DNA of 64,000 nucleotides, taken from contig OX597830.1 in assembly GCA_951406725.2 (NCBI GenBank), forward strand, positions 372,001-436,000, written 5' to 3'. The position numbers were made by a program, and so were the translations under genes. Positions 7,185 through 44,323 of this stretch are shown here, piece after piece (positions within the stretch are counted from its first letter, which is position 1; each line of letters opens with the position of its first letter). Under the pieces are notes generated by a model. The model saw only the letters and a list, made by a program, of their open reading frames with translations, was not told the origin of the DNA and did no database searches. Origin of the DNA: Octopus vulgaris. Taxonomy: Eukaryota.

Positions 7185-9074
7185 TTAGAGGGCCATTATG
7201 AACAGTAGTGGTCCCAAAACAGTGCCTTGCGGAACACCACTCACTATTTGCGTATTATTGGAGGTGGCCCCATTGGCTACTACCACCTGACTTCTATCCT
7301 TCAGAAAGTCATGAAGCCATTCTCCCAATTTTCCAACTATGCCAAGATCACGCAGTATGTGACATATCATTTCATGATCGACTTTATCAAAGGCCTTTGC
7401 AAAGTCGAGATATATCACTTCCACATGTGAGAGGTTGAGCAGTCGTTTCAGCACCCAGTCATAGTGTTGTAGGAGCTGAGTTAGGCTGCTTCTTCCTGGT
7501 CGGAAACCATGTCGGGTATCAGACAGCAAGTTATTTTCTTCAAGGAAGGCGATTAGTTTCCTTCTGACTATTCGTTCCATGACCTTGCTGATGTGTGAGG
7601 TCAGACAGATAGGTCTGTAGTTCTTGGCCTCCGCACTACGATCTCCTTTATGAATAAGGAATATTTTACCTTCTTTAAGTTTTCTTGGAAGTTTGCTAGT
7701 TGCAAGAAAGCTCTGAAAGAGGAACTGCAGTGGTCTTGCTAGGACTCTCTTACATACTTTTAGAAGAATTGTTGGGAATCCATCGTGGCCAGTAGCTGAG
7801 TTTGGGTTCATTTTATCTATAGCCTTTATTACACCGTCTTCCTTTATATTGATGTAATCAATCATCACTGCCTCTGATTTTATATCTGCAGTGGTAAAGA
7901 AGTCATTTGGATTGCTGATTTGAAAATGCCCTAGGGGTGGAGTGAAAATACTCTTGAATTGCTCATTTAGTATTTCACTTATCCTCATTGGATTTCCTGT
8001 GAGTATACCATCTTTTTCAAGGAGTGGCTCTATCCTACAATTCACCGCAGCTGTTTCTTTGGCAAACTTGTAGAAAGCTCTGCAGACAAGTTGCAGACAT
8101 TTTTCAATTTCCAACAGTTTTATTTTCAGGCGGGACTTTTCACTGCTTTCAATTTGTTTGTTTAGGAGATTTGAAACTTTTGTACGCCGTCTCATAAGAA
8201 TTTTCCTTTCTCTGGAGATTTTGTTCTTGTGTACAGTGGCTTTTCTCTCTGGGACACATTTGTAGCATATGGCTTGCATTACAGACATGGATTGTTGAAG
8301 TTTCATGTCGATGTCTGGCGAGGAGAGACATTCAGGCCAGTTTTGTTTGAGGATCTCTTTCTCAATTTGTTTCCAGTTTGCCTTATGGAAGTTCAAGCTG
8401 GAAAGATTCTGAGGGTTTCTTGTAGGCTGCATGTCCGTGCTCTCTTTTGGCGCGTACATGGTCAGCTCTACCATGTTGTGATCCGAGAGTAGTGTCGGTG
8501 TCACTTTCACATTAGGGATGAGATCCATATTATTTGTGAAGCAGAGATCCAGTATGTTACCTGCCCTGGTTGGCTGGAGTATTACCTGCTCCATGTACAG
8601 AGTGTTGATGAGGTTCAGGAGGGACCTCACCTGTCCTCGTTTGCATCGTGTCATTCCTGGGAGAGAAAGGCCCTCGGGCCATCTGACATTGGGCAGATTG
8701 AAGTCTCCCATAAGAAGTACACTTACGTGTTGTTCTAATGTGACTAGAACTTCTATTTTTGTAAGGCAATCTTCAAAATTGCCTACATGACTTGGAGCGT
8801 CTGGAGGGCGATATGTAGCACATATAACTACACCGAGTTGCCTAATATGTACAATTAGTGTGTCACACACCGAATTTGAGTCTGACAAATGGACCTGGTG
8901 TGTGAGGTCCTCGCGGATGTACATAACAACTCCACCATGACTCCTTTCTTTTCTGTCGGTCCGTAGTACAACATACTTTGGTATGTGTATTTCCGCATCT
9001 GCTGTGTCCGGTTTCAGGTGTGTTTCCGTAAGTACTATGCATAAGGCTTGATTGCAGGCAACAAGGTCTCTCAA
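7185..9074 (-). CDS. LINE ORF2 (APE endonuclease + RT), 629-aa open segment ending at a premature stop before YADD
   Basis: Motifs as above; reading continues in 6987-7181 (SYADDTK). Probably non-functional. Confidence 0.85.
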   Translation of the reverse strand: MRDLVACNQALCIVLTETHLKPDTADAEIHIPKYVVLRTDRKERSHGGVVMYIREDLTHQVHLSDSNSVCDTLIVHIRQLGVVICATYRPPDAPSHVGNFEDCLTKIEVLVTLEQHVSVLLMGDFNLPNVRWPEGLSLPGMTRCKRGQVRSLLNLINTLYMEQVILQPTRAGNILDLCFTNNMDLIPNVKVTPTLLSDHNMVELTMYAPKESTDMQPTRNPQNLSSLNFHKANWKQIEKEILKQNWPECLSSPDIDMKLQQSMSVMQAICYKCVPERKATVHKNKISRERKILMRRRTKVSNLLNKQIESSEKSRLKIKLLEIEKCLQLVCRAFYKFAKETAAVNCRIEPLLEKDGILTGNPMRISEILNEQFKSIFTPPLGHFQISNPNDFFTTADIKSEAVMIDYINIKEDGVIKAIDKMNPNSATGHDGFPTILLKVCKRVLARPLQFLFQSFLATSKLPRKLKEGKIFLIHKGDRSAEAKNYRPICLTSHISKVMERIVRRKLIAFLEENNLLSDTRHGFRPGRSSLTQLLQHYDWVLKRLLNLSHVEVIYLDFAKAFDKVDHEMICHILRDLGIVGKLGEWLHDFLKDRSQVVVANGATSNNTQIVSGVPQGTVLGPLLFIMAL

Positions 9075-10050
9075 GAACGGGATTTTGTCCTGTTACTGAG
9101 CGTTAGCAGTCCTCTTATGTTCAGTAGGCGCTTCGAGGTAATGTGTGTGTTATTGCCAGTGGTGTCCACCTTGGGTCTATTTGCTGTGGTGGTCTTGTGT
9201 ATTGTGGATAGTCCCATCTGCGAGTTTGAGTTTGATGGAGCCTGGTTAGCTGCTGTACAATCTTTTGTGCCATGCACAAAAAAGATTCTTGTTCAGCAGC
9301 TGCCCTTTCAATATCATGTTGATGGTTTGTAACACGCACTACATCTGCGTACCTCCGTTTTGGGGCAGGTGGTGCGTGGTCCATTCCTTTTCCTTTTGGA
9401 AGTTGGTTTCTGCCCTGTTTCATGTTTATGTGACAGGGTCTTTGGTGTGCAAAACGGCAGTGTGCACCTTCCTCTCCATGTCAGCAGACACCTTTCATGT
9501 AGAATTTACACATGCGTGTGCGCTGTCTCTTTCTATCCTTTTTGGTATATGGATAGTCAGGTTTGTTTCATCTTTTGGTTTTGTTTGAGTCTTAGCTTTT
9601 CCTTCTTTGGCTGTTTCATCCTTTGTTTTTCTTTTAGTTTTTCCGCCTTTTACTTCTTTTTTGGCTCTTTCATCTGCATGGTTTTGGCTTTTGATGCTGG
9701 TAGGGGCACTTGCACTTGGGTTTACTTCCCAGGCAGGTTTCTCACTTGAATCGTCTTTGTTGTCCTGGGTGTCTACCAAGTGGGGGTAAAATCCTTCATC
9801 TGCACCCGTGCCTCCATCCTTGCCATCTTTACTTTGTTTGTTGTCAAAGATGACATCAAGCGTGCCAATGTGGGATCTTATAAGTGCATAGGAGCGTGTA
9901 AACTCCTGTTTCTTTCGCTCTATCTGTGCTAACTTCCTTGTGTATCCACTGCTCTTCAGCGCAGCTGTAATTATGTTGTTTGAATTATCTCCGTCAGCAC
10001 ATTGCAGGCTCTCAAAAACAATGCCAATTCCATGGTCTTCCAGGTATTTA
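9071..10050 (-). pseudogene. LINE ORF1 remnant with CCCH-type zinc finger
   Basis: About 9445-9510 translates CKFYMKGVC*HGEEGAHCRFAH; Lys-rich segment at 9495-9779. Confidence 0.6.
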
Positions 10051-24694: not shown

Positions 24695-25100
24695 AGGCGG
24701 GAAAGCTGGCAGAAATGTTAGCACGCCGGGTTAAATGCTTAGCGGTATTTTGTCTGCCGTTACGTTCTGAGTTTAAAATATGCGAGGTCGACCTTGTTTT
24801 TCATCCTTTTGGGGTCAATAAATTAAGTACCAGCTGCGTACTTGTTCGATCTAATCGACTGTGCCCCCTGCCCCAAAATTTCGGGCCTTGTGTCTAGAGT
24901 AGAAAAAAAATTCAGTACGACGAGTGACATGCTTAGCGGTATTTCGTCTGCCGTTACGTTCGGAGTTCAAATTATGCCGAGGTCGACTTTGCCTTTCATC
25001 CTTTCGGGGTCGATAAGTTACGTACCAGTTGCACACTGGGGTCGATATAATCGACTGGCCCCCTCTTCCCAAATTTCTGGTTCTTGTGCCTAAGGCAGAA
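24695..25100 (+). mobile_element. Two adjacent SINE copies (same head/central domain as 16942)
   Basis: GAGGTCGAC..TTTCATCCTTT.GGGGTC.ATAA domain occurs twice. Confidence 0.85.
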
Positions 25101-31031: not shown

Positions 31032-34000
31032 ATGCTTAAATTAGGTTGTGTGAATGCGCGTGGCTTGGCGTCGGCTTGGAAGCAAGGTTACCTTCTAAAC
31101 GATATCAAGTCACTGAACGTGGATATAGTAGCTATCAGCGAAACCAGACTCAGCAAGCCGCGGGCCCTCGCGTCCATGTTTGGCGGTCAATTTGACATTT
31201 ATTTTTCTCCCTGTCTGCCGAACATGGGTGGTGGAGGTACCGCGGTGCTTTTTTGAAAGAGTCTAAATGTAAAAGTAAGAACAATAGTCCTAGACCCGGA
31301 GGGTAGGCTGGTTGTCTTGGACGTGGATGGCAGAAATGGGTGTGCATTCCGTCTGATGGCAGTTTATGCACCGTCCTTAACGGGTCGGGTGGATTTCTTC
31401 AGACGTCCAGAGGTTTTCCTGGGTACGTCTAGACCTTTACTGTTAGTAGGGGATTGGAACGCTACCTTGGACACGCATCTAGATTATATGGGAATGGATA
31501 GGAATAGAAGGGGGTGTAAGTGCCTCAAAGACCTACTCAGACGTTTCCATTTGTCTGACAGGTTCCGACTCGACCATCCGAACGTGCCAACGTGGACAAA
31601 CCGCGTCGGATCGTCGAGATCTTATCTAGATAGAATTCTTTGCAGGACAGCGGATAGGGATAGTGTAGGATGTCCACAATTTAAAATAGTCAGCTACACA
31701 GATCACAAATTTGTGACGTGTACGCTCGACTTAGATAAGACACATAGACAGGGTCCCGGTTACTGGAAACTGAACACGTCGCTCTTAGCCGACAGGTTTA
31801 CAGGAACCGGATTAGCGAGTTAATTAAGAGGGCGCTGACGGGAGCCGTCGTTAACAACCGCTAGTGGTACACACTGAAAATGGCAATAAAATCGGAATCA
31901 ATTAGGTTTAGCAAGGAATTAGCGATAGATCGAAATAGAGTAGAGGGAGACCTGGTTAAGAAACTAGAAGAGGCACTTACCACTGGCAGCGCAACCAACG
32001 TGCTGGCTGCGAGGATGGCCCTCGACTAACACCTCAACGCCAAGCACGAAGGTTGCGTCGTCAGAGCTAAAATGCGTGCCTTAAGGAACGAAGGGATCGA
32101 AGCTGCGCGAGAGGCCCGGGTAGCGGAGGCGCAGCGTGGCAACAGAGCCACCATTCGGTCTTTAATAGATCAACAGGGATGCAGTTTACTCGAACCCGAA
32201 AGGATGTGTGAGGCCTTTCAACAGCACTTTGCTCGACTGTTTGGTGCGAGTGGTGGGTCGGAACGCGGGATGGATTTCAATGCCTACCTGACCGACCTGC
32301 CGCGGCTCTCGGCAAGAGAAGTGGAGTGTTGTGAAAGTCCTATCACAGCCGCTGACGTGCGGGATGCGATGGCGGGCTGCGCGAGGGATAAGTCGCCTGG
32401 ATTGGATGGTTTACCCTACGAGCTGTATTGTCAAATGCCAGACTTGTTTGGCGACCTCTTGGCATCAGTCTACTGCAACTGGCAACAAAACAGGAGAATC
32501 CCCGGTTTCGTGAGCCGAGGTGCAGTGACGTTGCTGAAGAAAGACCCAAACAAGGGGAATTTTATAGATAATTTCAGGCCCATCATTCTGCTCAACGCAG
32601 ATTTGAAAATTTTGGCCAAAGTAATAGCCGAGAGGTTGGCGCTTGTCATTGGTAAACTGGTCGACTGGGCGCAAACATGCGCCGTGCCGAGCAGGACCAT
32701 ACATGACAACCTCCATCTGATGCGATACATTGTGGACAGGGTAGTTAAGGATCCTTGTATGAGTGGGGCGCTGATAAATTTGGATCAGTCTAAAGCCTTC
32801 GATAGGGTCGACCATCGGTACTTGGCGGCCGTCCTCAGAGCGGCTGGCTTCGGTCCCGTCTTCCGCGGTTGGATAGCGACATCTGATTGGTGATTCGGGG
32901 GAACGGTCACCTGTCGAAACCGTTTGACATCACACATTCGGTCCGTCAGGGGTGTCCTCTGTCGGCGCTTCTGTATGTATTGACTCTCGAGCCGCTACTA
33001 CGGAAGCTGGCGACACTGAGGGGGTATCCCACGGGAACTGGGTTGCGGGACGAGCGTGTCGGCATATGCGGACGATGTCACCGTCATAGTGTCGAGCGAC
33101 AAACACATCCAGATGATAGGCGAGACACTAAGAAAATACGAAACGGTGACGGGAGCGAAGATTAACCCGGAAAAGTCAGTGGGTTTGCTACTCGGCACCT
33201 GGAGAAGCAAGCCCATGCCGTCCGACTGCGGCTCAATAGTGGGACGCTGGACGGATGGACCGGTTAGATTGCTCGGGGTCTGGTTCAGTCCGTACCTCCA
33301 AATGAATAAGAACTGGGACGAGATCACGAGTAGAGTGGTCGCTCTCAGCCAAACATGGGCCGAGAGAAAGCTGTCTCGAAAAGGCCGGGCGGAGGTGGCG
33401 AACGCGTACATCGCATCCGTCATCGATTACCGTCTGACCGTCGTACCTTGTCCCGACGCCACCATCACCAAACTGGAACGCATACTCTTCCGCTTCCTGT
33501 GGAAGGGTGGCGTTCCGATGGTGAGGAAGTCCATTTGCTGTCAACATCCGTTGAATGGTGGACTGGGCATGCAGTGGTTGATGATGCGCAGGCATGCGCT
33601 GAGACTGCGACATCTCTGGAACTTCATCGACGACGGTGAACAGGTGTGGGCTCCGTTTGTGAGGCGCGCCTTCCCGCAGATCGTCTCACTGACCGAACTG
33701 CAAACGTGGATCAAGAAGAGACCGAAACTGGGCGATTGGCAGCCGAGAGTGTCGCCAAGCTCTACAGCAGCTCTGCCGACCGGGGTCAAACTTGTGCAAC
33801 TTACAAACGACTAAAGCGTTCTATAGAGGACTAGTGGAGGGGAGGTCCGACGACACACTCGGGGCAAACCTGGGCGTCGACGAGAAATTCCTAACCCGCC
33901 TGTTCAGGACGACGTTCGGGCCGGGGCCTATGGATAACTTCCAGAAATCCCTGGCTTGGCAGTGCTATCGAGACGCATTACCTGTTCGAGAAAAGAGCTA

Positions 34001-34420
34001 CAGACACGGTTCGAAAACCATCACCGGACCGACCAGCCCGAGATGCGGTCAGAGCGACGAAACCGTTCTGCACGCATTCGTGCAGTGTCCAGATATTTCA
34101 GAGCTGTGGACCTTCGTCGAACAGCTGTTGTCACGTGTAGGTCGGGCCCGCCTATCGGCCGAGTCTATCGTCTATATTGTTCCACTATCTTCCTTCCTTT
34201 AAACGGGAAGGGAAAACGGTTTTCGTTACGCTGATGGCTATGGCGAAAGAATGTGTGTGATGGACGTGTTTGAAAGGACTGCAAACAAACACCTTCCTCT
34301 CTGGTCAGTCTCTCGTCAACTTTTTCAAGTACCACTTGAAAAGGGGGATGAGAATAGAGAGGAAGGCTTTGTCGAACGAATGTTTTAATAAAAAGTGGGT
34401 AAAAGTGGCAAAAATGGTCA
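31032..34420 (+). pseudogene. Tx1/L1 ORF2 (APE + RT + C-terminal Zn domain), frameshifted
   Basis: NARGL, SET, VYAP, GDWN, YLDRI, TDH, YWKLN, KSPGLDGLP, NFRPI, LDQSKAFDRVDH, VRQGCPLS, AYADD, GGLG, RCGQSDETVLHAFVQC. Confidence 0.92.
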
Positions 34421-36450: not shown

Positions 36451-37407
36451 ATTTAAAACGCAGGCATCCAGTAAGTGCGCACTTGGATAAGCCTATGTTA
36501 ATTGCAAGCATGTTTATGAGAAAGACATGAAGTCTGAATACGAAAGGTGAAAAGTGAGAAAACATTTCTGACGGCAGATCCCATTCGAAATGGGAACTAG
36601 ATACAGGTTTAAAAACATGAGAGGTAAGGCTGGTCTTGCTGATGAAGAAAATTATATTCGAAAAGGTATGGCACCAAAGCAAGACTAGCAGACAGGGACT
36701 TCCCTTGTATTCAGGACTACAACCCATATGGAGGTCTTTATAGTCTCAACTAATGATGTTCTGCTAAGACGAAGACAAGACTTTCCAGACACAGATACAT
36801 GTTCTCTCGAGACAACCGGATGTGTCCTCCCATGAATACCCACACACGTACTCACACAAACATGCACGTGTGCACACACATATGCACTACGCACACACAC
36901 ATACATACATGCACACTTAAACATACACATACACAAACGTATATATATATGTATATACATATATATATATACATACACACATATATATATATACATACAT
37001 ATATATATACATACATATACATACATATATACATACATATATATATACATACATACATATATATATACATACATACATATGTATATATATACATACATAT
37101 GTATATATATACATACATATATATCAACAATTGAGGGTAAAATTAATTAATCAATTTCACCAAGTGTTCAGTATGTAAAAGGACCATTTAAGGCGAATTC
37201 AAAATATTACATTATATAATTAGGGCTTAGTAAAATAAAATAAAATTACTTTGCCACATACTGAACTTAGTAGAAATAGCAGCCAAAAAAAATTTTTTTT
37301 AGCCGTTTCTACTACTTAAAGAAAATTTCTCTCAGATAATGTTTACTCCAGACAGCTCACGAAGGTTTGGAGGTAAATACAGAAAAATATCACAAGTACA
37401 TAGATCG

Positions 37408-37470
37408 TTTGAGTACGTTAACGTTTCAAGATTAGCCAAGTAAAATCAGCATTTCTTTCGTCTGCTCAAA
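37408..37470 (-). ncRNA. HHR copy with core mutation (CAGACGA)
   Basis: Reverse complement of 38484-38546 with U4A. Confidence 0.65.
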
Positions 37471-37981
37471 ATTTCTTAATTTGGATTTGGAAACACTAAA
37501 AAGAAGGAACCTTACCTATCTGCGAACTTGTCGCTTCAAATGAACCAGCTCCGACTGACAGTGCTAACAAATTCAAAATGCGCAGGCGTAAATCTCTGCA
37601 CTCCTTTGCCACCCACGTGGTCTATCTAGCAAACATTATATTTTAACCGCGAGAACCGAAGCAGTATGACAGAGAGAAATGAATTATAATATCAACAATT
37701 GAGGGTAAAATTAATTAATCAATTTCACCAAGTGTTCAGTATGTAAAAGGACCATTTAAGGCGAATTCAAAATATTACATTATATAATTAGGGCTTAGTA
37801 AAATAAAATAAATTACTTTGCCTGCCACATACTGAACTTAGTAGAAATAGCAGCCAAAAAAAATTTTTTTTTTTAGCCGTTTCTACTACTTAAAGAAAAT
37901 TTCTCTCAGATAATGTTTACTCCAGACAGCTCACGAAGGTTTGGAGGTAAATACAGAAACATATCACAAGTACGTAGATCG

Positions 37982-38044
37982 TTTGAGTACGTTAACGTTT
38001 CAAGATTAGCCAAGTAAAATCAGCACTTCTTTCGTCAGCTCAAA
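37982..38044 (-). ncRNA. Canonical type I HHR
   Basis: Reverse complement of 38484-38546; core intact. Confidence 0.85.
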
Positions 38045-38483
38045 ATTTCTTAATTTGGATTTGGAAACACTAAAAAGAAGGAACCTTACCTATCTGCGAA
38101 CTTGTCGCTATTTCTACTAAGTTCAGTATGTGGCAAAGTAATTTATTTTATTTTACTAAGCCCTAATTATATAATGTAATATTTTGAATTCGCCTTAAAT
38201 GGTCCTTTTACATACTGAACACTTGGTGAAATTGATTAATTAATTTTACCCTCAATTGTTGATATTATAATTCATTTCTCTCTGTCATACTGCCTCGGTT
38301 CTCGCGGTTAAAATATAATGTTTGCTTGATAGACCACGTGGGTGGCAAAGGAGTGCAGAGATTTACGCCTGCGCATTTTGAATTTGTTAGCACTGTCAGT
38401 CGGAGCTGGTTCATTTGAAGCGACAAGTTCGCAGATAGGTAAGGTTCCTTCTTTTTAGTGTTTCCAAATCCAAATTAAGAAAT

Positions 38484-38546
38484 TTTGAGCTGACGAAAGA
38501 AATGCTGATTTTACTTGGCTAATCTTGAAACGTTAACGTACTCAAA
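38484..38546 (+). ncRNA. Canonical type I HHR
   Basis: TTTGAG-CTGACGA-AAGA...TCTT-GAAA-CGTTAACG-TA-CTCAAA; stem III palindrome ACGTTAACGT; GUA site. Confidence 0.88.
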
Positions 38547-38835
38547 CGATCTATGTACTTGTGATATTTTTCTGTATTTACCTCCAAACCTTCGTGAGCT
38601 GTCTGGAGTAAACATTATCTGAGAGAAATTTTCTTTAAGTAGTAGAAACGGCTAAAAAAAAAAAAAATTTTTTTGGCTGCTATTTCTACTAAGTTCAGTA
38701 TGTGGCAAAGTAATTTATTTTATTTTACTAAGCCCTAATTATATAATGTAATACATACATATATATATATATATACATATATATATACATACATACATAC
38801 ATACATACATAAATACATACATACATATATATATG

Positions 38836-38899
<64 letters not shown>

Positions 38900-38906
<7 letters not shown>

Positions 38907-40183: not shown

Positions 40184-40656
40184 GGCGGCCAGCTGGCAGA
40201 AACGTTAGCACGCCGGGCGGCGACATGCCTAGCGGTATTTCGTCTGCCGCTACGTTCTGAATTCAAATTCCGCCGAGGTCGACTTTGCCTTTCATCCTTC
40301 CGAGGTCGATAAATTAAGTACCAGTTACGCACTGGGGATCGATGTAATCAACTCAATCCGTTTGTCTGTCCTTGTTTGTCCCCTCTGTGTTTAGTCCCTT
40401 GTGGGTAGTAAAGAAATAGGTATTTCGTCTGCCGTTACGTTCCGAGTTCAAATTCCGCCGAGGTCGACTTTGCCTTTCATCCTTTCGGGGTCGATAAATT
40501 AAGTACCATTTACGCACTGGGGTCGATGTAATCGACTCAATCCGTTTGTCTGTCCTTGTTCGTCCCCTCTGTGTTTAGCCCCTTGTGGGTAGTAAAGAAA
40601 TAGGTATTTCGTCTGCCGCTTCGTTCTGAGTTCAAATTCCGCCGTGGTCGACTTTG
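40184..40656 (+). mobile_element. SINE with tandem head-less repeats (184-185-bp period)
   Basis: GGTATTTCGTCTGCCG at 40234, 40419 and 40603. Confidence 0.9.
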
Positions 40657-41242: not shown

Positions 41243-41457
41243 AAGTTAATCCAAACAAGAAAACACAAAAAACACAACAACGCGAGGACGTGGAACAAAT
41301 ATAGTGTTATTGGATGCTCAGGAAAGAAGGGAAGAAGGCAGGTTTAACGTTTCGAGCGGAGCTCTTCGTCAGAAACATAGGAGAAGGAAAGATCCAGAGA
41401 AGGGAAGACAGAGGGAAAAATCGCCAACGGTACACACGAGGTCACATTTTGAAAGGT

Positions 41458-41825: not shown

Positions 41826-44008
41826 CCTTTCTCTATCTAGTATCTGCCTCTCACGTCGAATCTAACGCTTTCCTCAATCAACCCTATTATACTCAATAAG
41901 GCAGTCTGGCATGCATACAATAAAGTAGGTCTCTCTAGGGAAGAAATTACTGTGGTACTGGCTGCTAGAAAATCATTCATCAAGTTCGATAAGAAGTTGT
42001 GGGCCCGGAAGGATACTCCCAATGCGTTCGATGTCCTAATGGGAAGTACAGATTCCGCTCAAATTGCTGATTTGGTCGGAATATATATACTTTATGATAT
42101 GGCCGACCAGTTCCCGGACATCTGTGGAGGTCTTTATCTCGATGATTGTCTGCTTTACCTCCAAAACATTTCAAATAAAAAAATACAGAAGGTTAAGAAT
42201 AGATTAGTTAGGTTTTTAGTAGAATGGGCTTTCACATCGTTTTTGACGATGAGTTAACTAAAGCTAACTTCTTACACATTACTCTCAATTTACAAAATAA
42301 CTCGTACTTCCCATACCATAAACCTTCCACAAATCTCAAATACATTAGCCCTTACAGTAATCACGCTAGGGCAATTACTAAGAATTTAGTTAAAAACATT
42401 TCACTTAGATTATCTAAATTATCCGCCAATGTTGACATTTTTAACGACAAGGCAGAATTCTATAACTCTGCCTTGGTTAAAGCTGGTTACAAAGAGAAAG
42501 TGACATACACTGATTCTGCTCAATCTAGTCCTTTATCTACTTTTCAAGGCAAAAAATCTAGTTGTAATAATAAGAGTGATTTTATTTCTAATATTGTAAA
42601 CACCGCAATACATAATATAAATCCTTTACGGAGGAAGGGAGGCAAACGTTATTTAAGCTCAAATTTTCACTCTAGAGATTTTTCATCTTCCTTTAAAGAC
42701 AATACCACTTATAATTTAAATGTTACTAGGAAAGATATCTGGTTTGTAATTCCGTTTGTTATTCCGTGAAGTGGTTGGTAAATACTTCCCAAAAAATTCT
42801 TGATATTATTCGATTATTAACTCTCATATAGTTACAGTCGCCTTCTCCAACAAAAAGCATCTTTCACAAATTATATCTTTTCACAATACCAATCTGCTAA
42901 ATAAAAGTTCATTTTCCGGGAGTTCCAACATTAATCTTGTTAATTCCAACCCCTCATATAACAACAACAACAACAACAGTCATCGTCGTCGTCATCATCA
43001 TCATCGCAATAAAAAACTTGGTTTGGGTCTCTGAGGACAGCACCAACAGAATTAAATTTATGTCTAATAATTCTAAGATCAAAAATTCTATATTAAATTT
43101 CTTACCGATGTCTACTTCTACATAGGCGCATCGTCTTCCCTGTTATCTAAGAGAATTTCCAATCATTACTCATCATTTAGGGATAGCAGAAAACGCCATA
43201 GCACAGGGCTAAGTAAATTGGTTTTGCATCTTAAAGACAATAATAAAGATTTTAAGTTAGATTGGTTCATCCTGTGCATATCTTTTCCTTACGATAAGGG
43301 CAAGGGATTTTGTAACATTTGCAACTCTGAACTCTTCTATATTCTCTTCTCTAAGAATCACCTTGTTAACACACTTATAGAGCGATCTTACAAATGTAAA
43401 CACTGGCAGAAACATACCTTTAGCTCATATAAGTGATTTCGCCAGTCTTTATAGTTTGAACATTTATTTTAACTTGCATTTTACTTCAATAGAGAAATCT
43501 ACTTCTAAGCCTTTGAACATTTTTTCAGTCAACGTATCCCTCTTTATTTGTTCTCTATTTATTATTTCTTTAACCCTTCTCTTCCTAGTATCTGCCTTTG
43601 ACGTCAAATCTACTAACGGTTTTTTATAATAGTTAATAACGTTCTGTTTATCATTTAGGCAGTCATCGGAATTGTGATAATGTCTTGTTGTTGAGAAGAA
43701 AGGCTCTCTTTCTTTCCTGATGAGAAGATTGCATTTTACACCGTTTGTTCCTTTGGAATTAAACCAATGTTGTCTTCGAAACATATGTCGAAAGTAAAAG
43801 AATTTTAATAACATCTTCGTTCAACTCCATTTATTTACTTATATATACATATATATATTTATTTACTTATACTGTACATTAACCCAGAGTTTCTACCTTT
43901 GAATAGGTCGTTTCATGCGTGTTACTTGCGTGAATTTTGCTACCCTGGTGAATGTTTATTGAATTTGCCATGTTAAGGGTAAACAAAGGATAATTCATTT
44001 ATCCATTT
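41826..44008 (+). mobile_element. 5'-truncated Naiad-type Penelope-like element (RT + GIY-YIG remnant + 3' UTR HHR)
   Basis: FDVLMGSTDSAQIADLVGIYIL, GLYLDDCL, NFLHITLNL, PYHKP, SNH, IWF, CNICNSELFYIL..N...E..YKCKH; frameshifted. Confidence 0.88.
43712..43794 (+). ncRNA. Canonical type I HHR in the Naiad 3' UTR
   Basis: CTTTC-CTGATGA-GAAGA...TCTTC-GAAA-CATATG-TC-GAAAG; GUC site. Confidence 0.9.
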
Positions 44009-44050
44009 ATACACACACACACACACACATATATATACATATATATATAT

Positions 44051-44323
44051 AGTTAATCCAAACAAGAAAACACAAAAAACACAACAACGCGAGGACGTGG
44101 AACAAATATAGTATTATTGGACATATGACCTCGTGTGTACCGTTGGCGATTTTTTCCTCTGTCTTCCCTTCTCTAGATCTTTCCTTCTCCTATGTTTCCG
44201 ACGAAGAGCTCCGCTCGAAACGTTAAACCCTCATTCTTCTCTTCCTTCCTGACCGTCCAATAATACTATATTTGTTCCACGTCCTCGCGTTGTTGTGTTT
44301 TCTCTTTCATGTTTGGATTAACT
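44051..44323 (+). mobile_element. Penelope pLTR fragment with about 71-bp inverted termini and HHR (44194-44228, U4C)
   Basis: 44051-44122 is the reverse complement (few mismatches) of about 44255-44323; core CCGACGA. Confidence 0.85.

What the first reader, a model, noticed from the sequence alone, without database searches (positions are those of the whole stretch)
37123..38751. 568-nt HHR unit integrated as a tandem multimer plus an inverted multimer
Seen: copy 1 (37123-37690) and partial copy 2 (37691-38108), then a strand switch at GCT microhomology to an inverted arm (38106-38751) that is itself longer than one unit and crosses the same junction. There are three HHRs: two intact CTGACGA and one CAGACGA. 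The unit is non-coding and structured (TAGTAGAAA/TTTCTACTA, GTTCAGTATGT/ACATACTGAAC). Copies differ at several positions. Inference: both arms crossing the junction implies a circular or concatemeric template. Read-through of copies 2 to 1 on the minus strand would place two HHRs one unit apart, able to release a monomer if the mutated core still cleaves.
Basis: partly seen in the sequence, partly recalled or inferred. Interest (0 to 1): 0.8.

Follow-up and report, generated by a model that had tools for sequence, protein, structure and literature searches.

The report
Penelope-borne hammerhead repeat, two-armed insertion
This is one aged copy of a many-copy, non-coding 568-base repeat that carries a predicted self-cutting hammerhead RNA and sits in a TA microsatellite in the two-armed pattern described for Penelope-like retrotransposons, so it is likely a new member of a known kind of animal genome parasite (a retrozyme), probably copied from a single RNA circle.

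Summary
Observation confirmed (junction 38107-38109, inverted arm to 38753). The locus is not unique. The genome holds 96 exact TA junctions at the unit's first base. Of 83 loci analysed, 60 have an inverted arm, and 56 of those arms end at a second fixed site 74-93 nt into the unit. This is the tandem + inverted + tail + (TA)n signature of Penelope-like elements (PLEs). The unit has no ORF and matches no autonomous PLE end tested, so it is a non-autonomous, PLE-mobilised retrozyme. Units within one insertion share one haplotype (1.4% mismatch against 17.5% between loci), which favours one monomer copied repeatedly. In a young 589-nt sister family, 5' truncations pile up just before the predicted hammerhead cut (11 vs 2 expected); in this family they do not (5 vs 4.9). 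One of 87 anchored ends has a Neptune-type PLE as its second arm, a hint at the helper. Cleavage and circular RNA are not shown. The CAGACGA core is private to window copy 1. The scan has noted similar octopus elements before. New member of a known kind.

The parts
36892..37122 (.). Left target: (TA)n/(TACA)n microsatellite
37123..37690 (-). Copy 1, full 568-nt unit (hammerhead-sense strand is minus); its left end is the family's outer start site
37123..37213 (-). PLE-type 'tail': stretch between outer start (unit 1) and inner start (unit about 83-91), present at this end of the insertion only
37166..37266 (-). Predicted stem GTTCAGTATGT/ACATACTGAAC whose loop holds the inner start site; part of the region best conserved among sister families
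37268..37314 (-). Predicted hairpin TAGTAGAAA/TTTCTACTA
37408..37470 (-). Type I hammerhead of copy 1, core CAGACGA (U4A, private to this copy); predicted cut between 37413 and 37414
37691..38109 (-). Copy 2, unit 1-413, 5'-truncated at the strand switch
37982..38044 (-). Type I hammerhead of copy 2, core CTGACGA; predicted cut between 37987 and 37988
38107..38109 (.). GCT microhomology joining the 5' ends of the two arms head to head
38107..38753 (+). Inverted arm: unit 158 to 1, then 568 to 83; ends at the family's inner start site
38484..38546 (+). Type I hammerhead of the inverted arm, core CTGACGA at 38490; predicted cut after 38540
38754..38900 (.). Right target: (TA)n/(TACA)n microsatellite

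Best explanation
This is one insertion of a many-copy, ORF-less 568-nt hammerhead-bearing repeat, likely pasted into a TA microsatellite by the reverse transcriptase-endonuclease of an autonomous Penelope-like element, which probably copied one RNA monomer (most likely a circle) from two fixed internal start sites. Shown: the anatomy, the fixed ends, the TA targets, variable 5' junctions with microhomology, one haplotype per insertion, and intact young PLE genes in the same genome. Inferred steps: (1) a tandem donor is transcribed, the hammerheads cut out a monomer and a host ligase closes it; (2) the PLE protein nicks both strands of (TA)n and primes cDNA at unit 1 on one strand and at unit about 83-91 on the other; (3) each cDNA runs a variable distance, sometimes round the circle more than once; (4) the two cDNA ends anneal at a few shared bases (GCT here), giving tandem arm + inverted arm with a tail at one end. 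The helper is unidentified; a Neptune-type family is the best single lead, and Hydra-type families are alternatives. This copy is likely a dead end.
For: Family: 123 matches from 40 of 1301 candidates scored; 96 exact TA-to-unit-1 junctions, 0 for the reversed control. Of 83 non-redundant loci anchored on that junction, 60 have an inverted arm, 56 of those 60 end at unit 74-93, and 77 have the far end in TA. Autonomous PLEs here make the same two-ended pattern, and Craig 2021 and Frangieh 2024 describe it and tie the tail to two internal RT starts. One template per insertion: mismatch at subfamily-informative sites is 26/1826 within loci vs 33260/189936 between; in the sister family 6/1899 vs 14199/68260. 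12 of 136 arms are longer than one unit and 44 of 50 arms reaching the hammerhead pass its cut site, which a cleaved linear monomer read once cannot give. Hammerhead kept: 90 of 93 cores intact; 5 of 12 stem pairs change on both sides across three families, 95% of cells paired vs 19-48% for slid controls. In the 589-nt sister family 11 of 54 arm ends fall in the 21 nt before the predicted cut (2.0 expected, p 1e-5, top window) and none in the next 30 nt; with one arm per locus, 7 vs 1.7, p 0.002. Chimeric locus L394: unit arm from its outer start joined without TA to a Neptune-type 3' end finishing at its inner start.
Against: No RNA evidence: no holder is on record as RNA, and contig depth in guessed-RNA runs follows the same tail-heavy profile as large runs. 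In the 568-nt family itself there is no pile-up at the cut (5 observed, 4.9 expected). Its stem II closes with A-U, and in some copies with a mismatch, instead of the conserved G10.1-C11.1. Frangieh 2024 found cleavage unnecessary and unprocessed RNA the main substrate in vitro; Li 2026 saw no cleavage for 8 of 9 dimers. L009 has tandem units of two haplotypes and L276 shows an A-B-B-A-B unit pattern, so other routes to multimers exist. The pile-up could partly be stalling at stem I. No autonomous PLE end tested shares sequence with the unit. The chimera is 1 of 87 anchored ends and could be a deletion between neighbours.
Confidence: 0.6

Rival explanations
1. Same non-autonomous PLE-mobilised element, but the template is an uncleaved read-through transcript of a young, homogeneous tandem donor; the hammerhead is incidental or regulatory.
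For: Frangieh 2024: unprocessed RNA is the main substrate in vitro. No pile-up at the cut in this family and 44 of 50 arms pass it. L009 has mixed units. Variants 'private' to a locus are private only within my sample of 88 loci.
Against: Arms end at about 0.0045 per nt, so a lineage that only copies donors would shrink below one unit unless multimers are remade (inference). Within-locus mismatch at informative sites stays near zero in both families. The sister family shows a sharp edge at the cut.
Confidence: 0.22
2. The template is a cleaved linear monomer, and RT jumps from its 5' end to a 3' end to make multimers without covalent circles.
For: Pile-up at the cut in the sister family. The first base after the cut varies in 4 of 91 sister copies, 3 of them in one insertion whose units otherwise share a haplotype (L283).
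Against: That base is in a CpG and the cases come from 2 loci. 83 of 91 junctions read are the modal sequence with no insertions or deletions. Circles dominate in coral, mussel and axolotl retrozymes.
Confidence: 0.1
3. The unit is only the pLTR of an autonomous PLE, and the copies are its 5'-truncated ends.
For: The hammerhead, two starts and TA targeting are pLTR features. My survey of autonomous families is not exhaustive (best 61-150 candidates per search).
Against: Arms longer than a unit return to the unit's own start. Of 87 anchored ends, 8 had a PLE protein hit beyond the element: 7 across a TA tract and 1 in opposite orientation. Sister units of 560 and 589 nt align end to end and are also ORF-less.
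Confidence: 0.04
4. Tandem and inverted copies arose in DNA after insertion (unequal exchange, fold-back) or are assembly errors.
For: L276 shows later DNA-level duplication. Long reads were not available.
Against: The two arms start at different fixed sites in 56 of 60 loci. The three copies here differ by several substitutions and indels. The same geometry recurs across many contigs and families.
Confidence: 0.04

Closest known systems
Metazoan non-LTR retrozymes (Cervera and de la Pena 2020, PMC7229834, parts 2-4 of 6 read plus a term search; Li, Clavereau and Pollet 2026, 10.64898/2026.07.22.740005, parts 1-3 of 5 read; supplements of neither seen)
   Same: Non-coding, low-GC (34%), highly self-paired unit with one type I hammerhead, in tandem and dispersed copies. 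Both papers propose PLEs as helper and circles as RT template.
   Different: Unit 568 nt (170-400 nt in Cervera; within the 51-972 nt range of Li). The words 'inverted', 'microsatellite', 'octopus' and 'cephalopod' do not occur in the Cervera main text. Cleavage and circles are not shown here.
EN+ Penelope-like elements, Hydra and Neptune clades (Craig et al. 2021, PMC8557442: section 11, passages and supplement search hits seen; Frangieh et al. 2024, PMC11167929: parts 1-2 of 4 read)
   Same: Partial tandem, inverted 5'-truncated copy, tail at one end, (TA)n target, hammerhead near the 3' end, two internal RT starts.
   Different: No ORF. Tail about 82-90 nt rather than 30-40 (autonomous families here: about 42, 75 and 150 nt). 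No sequence match to any autonomous end tested.
Non-autonomous Chlamys PLEs such as MRC1 (Craig et al. 2021, passage)
   Same: ORF-less PLE derivatives forming pLTRs and multicopy head-to-tail insertions.
   Different: Those generally resemble an autonomous family at the 3' end, and their clade mostly lacks canonical hammerheads.
PLE hammerheads and the circle-template proposal (Cervera and de la Pena 2014, PMC4209133, passages only)
   Same: Short helix III; proposal that cleaved, ligated circles give more-than-unit cDNA.
   Different: Long helix II extension here; helix III is palindromic only in the window's sub-lineage and in the sister families.

Membership tests
Non-LTR retrozyme | Type I hammerhead in each unit | tested here: met
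   90 of 93 family copies have CTGACGA; covariation; window copy 1 is the one CAGACGA
Non-LTR retrozyme | Non-coding, low-GC unit of a few hundred nt in tandem | tested here: met
   34% GC, no ORF, no PLE protein hit; up to about 3.4 units in tandem
Non-LTR retrozyme | Two consecutive units with complete hammerheads (Li 2026 'active' criterion) | tested here: inconclusive
   Not met at this locus (U4A in copy 1); multi-unit loci exist elsewhere in the family
Non-LTR retrozyme | Highly self-paired predicted circle | tested here: met
   z -6.8, -6.1 and -4.4 for three families, 25 shuffles each
Non-LTR retrozyme | Self-cleavage | not testable with these tools
   Indirect only: pile-up at the cut in the sister family, none in this one
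Non-LTR retrozyme | Expressed as monomeric circular RNA | tested here: inconclusive
   Only contigs of guessed-RNA runs were available
PLE-type insertion | Partial tandem plus inverted 5'-truncated copy | tested here: met
   60 of 83 loci have an inverted arm
PLE-type insertion | Tail between two fixed RT start sites | tested here: met
   56 of 60 inverted arms end at unit 74-93 in loci anchored on unit 1; longer than the 30-40 nt in print
PLE-type insertion | (TA)n target preference | tested here: met
   Far end in TA in 77 of 83 loci
Autonomous PLE or its pLTR | RT + GIY-YIG ORF joined to the repeat in sense | tested here: not met
Non-autonomous derivative of a named PLE family | 3' end similar to an autonomous family | tested here: not met
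   No blastn or nhmmer match to ends of the Hydra-type (899, 842, 980, 727 aa) or Neptune-type (781 aa, L150, L152, L394-type) loci fetched; survey incomplete

The most novel reading that the evidence does not exclude
Octopus retrozyme insertions are direct genomic records of PLE transposition. A PLE protein dimer primes both target strands at two sites of one hammerhead-processed RNA circle and rolls round it; cleaved templates leave 5' ends at the ribozyme cut; and a Neptune-type enzyme can pair a retrozyme arm with an arm of its own RNA. With a very young sister family and intact helper ORFs in the same genome, the origin of PLE tandem/inverted structures and the role of their hammerheads becomes directly testable.
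Probability: 0.4. Interest if true: 0.62.

Novelty: new member of a known kind. Interest (0 to 1): 0.36.

Why it matters
The element class is known and this copy is probably inert. Its value is as evidence. That PLEs mobilise animal retrozymes through circular templates has been proposed (PMC7229834, PMC4209133, Li 2026) but, in the parts I read, not shown from insertion anatomy. Here the PLE signature, one haplotype per insertion, 5' ends at the predicted cut in a young sister family and one retrozyme-Neptune chimera all point that way and name concrete reagents for a test. I did not find these points in the listings of 7 literature searches; most subscription papers, Repbase/Dfam entries and several supplements were not searchable.

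Tried and rejected
Rfam scan of the window: no hit. Pfam on two PLE ORFs: nothing significant. Search for the autonomous partner: five protein or family searches of the genome found Hydra-type and Neptune-type families, none sharing DNA with the unit. A faint likeness to the 980-aa Hydra-type 5' region was not supported by nhmmer and was dropped. Neighbouring PLE fragments were rejected as partners where a TA tract intervenes. Expression: no RNA holder listed; contigs of guessed-RNA runs cover the unit and bridge the 568/1 junction, but that junction exists in DNA, so this is no evidence of circles. Pile-up of 5' ends at the cut in the 568-nt family: tested, absent. Four motif searches in the Craig 2021 supplement found no copy of the unit's tail; one 10-mer hit an unrelated GC-rich sequence, and line breaks can hide matches. 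The search of earlier findings by sequence gave nothing. Rows dropped before counts: 4 of 87 anchored ends as duplicates, 1 sister locus as a likely duplicate, chains with more than two pieces for the second arm, and arms under 90% (568 family) or 96% (sister) identity, homopolymer and AT-repeat columns and 8 nt at each copy end were masked. Full-length copies of the L394-type Neptune family were not obtained, so its 5' region is untested.

Full report
Observation. The structure is as described, within 1-2 nt. A tandem arm (unit 1-568, then 1-413) and an inverted arm (unit 158 to 1, then 568 to 83) meet at GCT 38107-38109, between two TA-rich microsatellites. On the hammerhead-sense strand both arms point their 3' ends outward. 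The three hammerheads are type I: 6-bp stem I, CUGACGA, extended stem II, GAAA, 2-bp stem III, cut after GUA. The copies differ by a few substitutions and indels. The unit is non-coding. The host looks like an octopus: 2.8 Gb, an Argonauta homologue among the PLE hits, and a SINE that I recognise from recall only.

Family. The unit had 1301 candidates in the genome, 40 scored. An exact pattern for TA followed by unit 1 matched 96 places, against 0 for the reversed control. I fetched 85 loci for these matches, giving 87 anchored ends and 83 non-redundant loci. The outer end is fixed by that selection, but the far end is not: 60 loci have an inverted arm, 56 of these end at unit 74-93, and 77 far ends lie in TA. 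The central junctions are scattered. In the first, differently selected set, 24 of 27 distinct loci have an end at unit 1 beside TA (my count; that query favours such loci). Craig et al. describe partial tandems, an inverted truncated copy, a tail at one end and TA targeting for PLEs. Frangieh et al. show that the tail is the distance between two internal RT starts and that the enzyme nicks and extends both strands.

Not a pLTR. Long arms return to the unit's own start, and no locus joins the unit in sense to a PLE ORF. Two sister families, 560 nt (77% identical) and 589 nt (young, mostly 98-100% between copies, 476 exact end junctions including older relatives), align end to end and share the predicted fold: a rod holding the hammerhead, and a tail domain closed by pairing across the outer start. 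The genome holds intact young PLEs of Hydra type (899, 842, 980 and 727 aa) and Neptune type (781 aa and others). Clades were assigned by motif comparison with Craig's text and alignment rows and partly from recall; no tree was built. None of their ends matches the unit by blastn or by a tail HMM.

Helper lead. At L394 (G000:C18, about 37.287 Mb) a unit arm from the outer start is joined head to head, through a short microhomology and duplication with no TA tract, to about 640 nt of an abundant Neptune-type family that ends at that family's inner start. That arm is 94-97% identical to 29 other copies, similar in age to the unit family. This is the geometry expected if one enzyme complex used two RNAs, but it is 1 case in 87 and a deletion between neighbours is possible.

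Template. 44 of 50 arms that reach the hammerhead pass the cut site, and 12 of 136 arms exceed one unit, so the template is uncleaved, re-ligated or re-entered. All units of an insertion, on both arms, carry the same subfamily alleles: 1.4% mismatch within against 17.5% between loci (54 multi-copy loci), and 0.3% against 20.8% in the sister family (40 loci). 117 variants are shared by all copies of a locus, 10 of them seen in no other sampled locus. Since arms end at about 0.0045 per nt, multimers must be remade from time to time; a monomer copied repeatedly is the simplest source (inference). Exceptions are L009 (two haplotypes) and L276 (A-B-B-A-B, later duplication).

Ribozyme. 90 of 93 cores are intact, and CAGACGA occurs only in window copy 1. 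That U4 changes impair cutting is recalled knowledge. Across the three families 5 of 12 stem pairs show double changes; the 10 sequences are related, so this is modest support. In the sister family I noticed ends at the cut in three loci and then tested the fixed window cut-20 to cut on a separate, pattern-derived set. There were 11 of 54 ends against 2.0 expected, it was the best-scoring window of the unit, and none fell in the next 30 nt; with one arm per locus, 7 of 38 against 1.7. Including older relatives gave 15 of 123 against 4.4. The 568-nt family shows no such excess (5 against 4.9), with a deficit just beyond the cut (1 against 4.5). The sister has the canonical G10.1-C11.1 pair with a U4C core, while this family has A-U there, which may mean weaker cutting or fuller ligation; the data do not decide. 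Stalling at stem I could explain the ends at 293, but less well the sharp edge at 297-299.

Expression could not be judged: only contigs of runs guessed to be RNA were available, and their profile mirrors the large runs.

Comparison and verdict. The element works like, and meets the testable criteria of, a metazoan non-LTR retrozyme, and it carries the PLE insertion signature. The circle-template and PLE-helper ideas are already in print as proposals. Earlier notes of this scan report similar octopus elements; they are unchecked and I saw them after forming this reading. Verdict: new member of a known kind, interest 0.36. Confidence is about 0.9 in the identity as a non-autonomous PLE-mobilised hammerhead repeat, and 0.6 in the full mechanism with a circular monomer. 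Supplements of the Li preprint are closed, and those of Cervera 2014 and 2020 were not read; they may list cephalopod families.

Noticed in passing
L096, L276-L295 (e.g. G000:C1:50.431-50.436 Mb): Very young 589-nt sister family with CCGAUGA core, arrays of up to about 8 units with inverted arms, and 5' ends piling up at the predicted cut; a better experimental subject than the window copy.
   Followed up: yes
L394 = L476, G000:C18 about 37.287 Mb: Chimeric two-armed insertion: 568-nt unit arm joined head to head to the 3' end of a Neptune-type PLE that has a U3-A8 hammerhead core.
   Followed up: partly
L283 (G000:C4 about 1.503-1.506 Mb): Three of five units differ at the first base after the predicted cut (two different changes) although they share a haplotype elsewhere; the base is in a CpG.
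   Followed up: partly
L276: Units of one arm alternate A-B-B-A-B, pointing to duplication in DNA after insertion.
   Followed up: partly
window 41826-43838: Frameshifted, internally shortened Hydra-type PLE fragment (RT motifs, hammerhead core at 43717) between TA tracts; unrelated in sequence to the unit.
   Followed up: partly
window 41243-41440 and 44050-44320: Another short TA-targeted repeat family with a compact hammerhead and an inverted partial copy; frequent in fetched loci.
   Followed up: no
L061, L077, L143, L156, L158, L249: Several young intact PLE families (Hydra type 899, 842, 980, 727 aa; Neptune type 781 aa with an upstream 479-aa ORF), where examined with two 3' end sites 40-150 nt apart.
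   Followed up: partly
L067:1484-2313, L118, L151, L070: A 560-nt sister (77% identical) and more distant relatives, many reduced to tail plus fold-back; contig depth over the tail is far above the rest of the unit.
   Followed up: partly
window 12863: A further hammerhead-like motif with a long stem II.
   Followed up: no
window 40234-40656 and 24735-25092: Tandem SINE-like copies of 184-195 nt.
   Followed up: no
window 7185-9092 and 31257-34202: LINE remnants with endonuclease- and RT-like reading frames.
   Followed up: no
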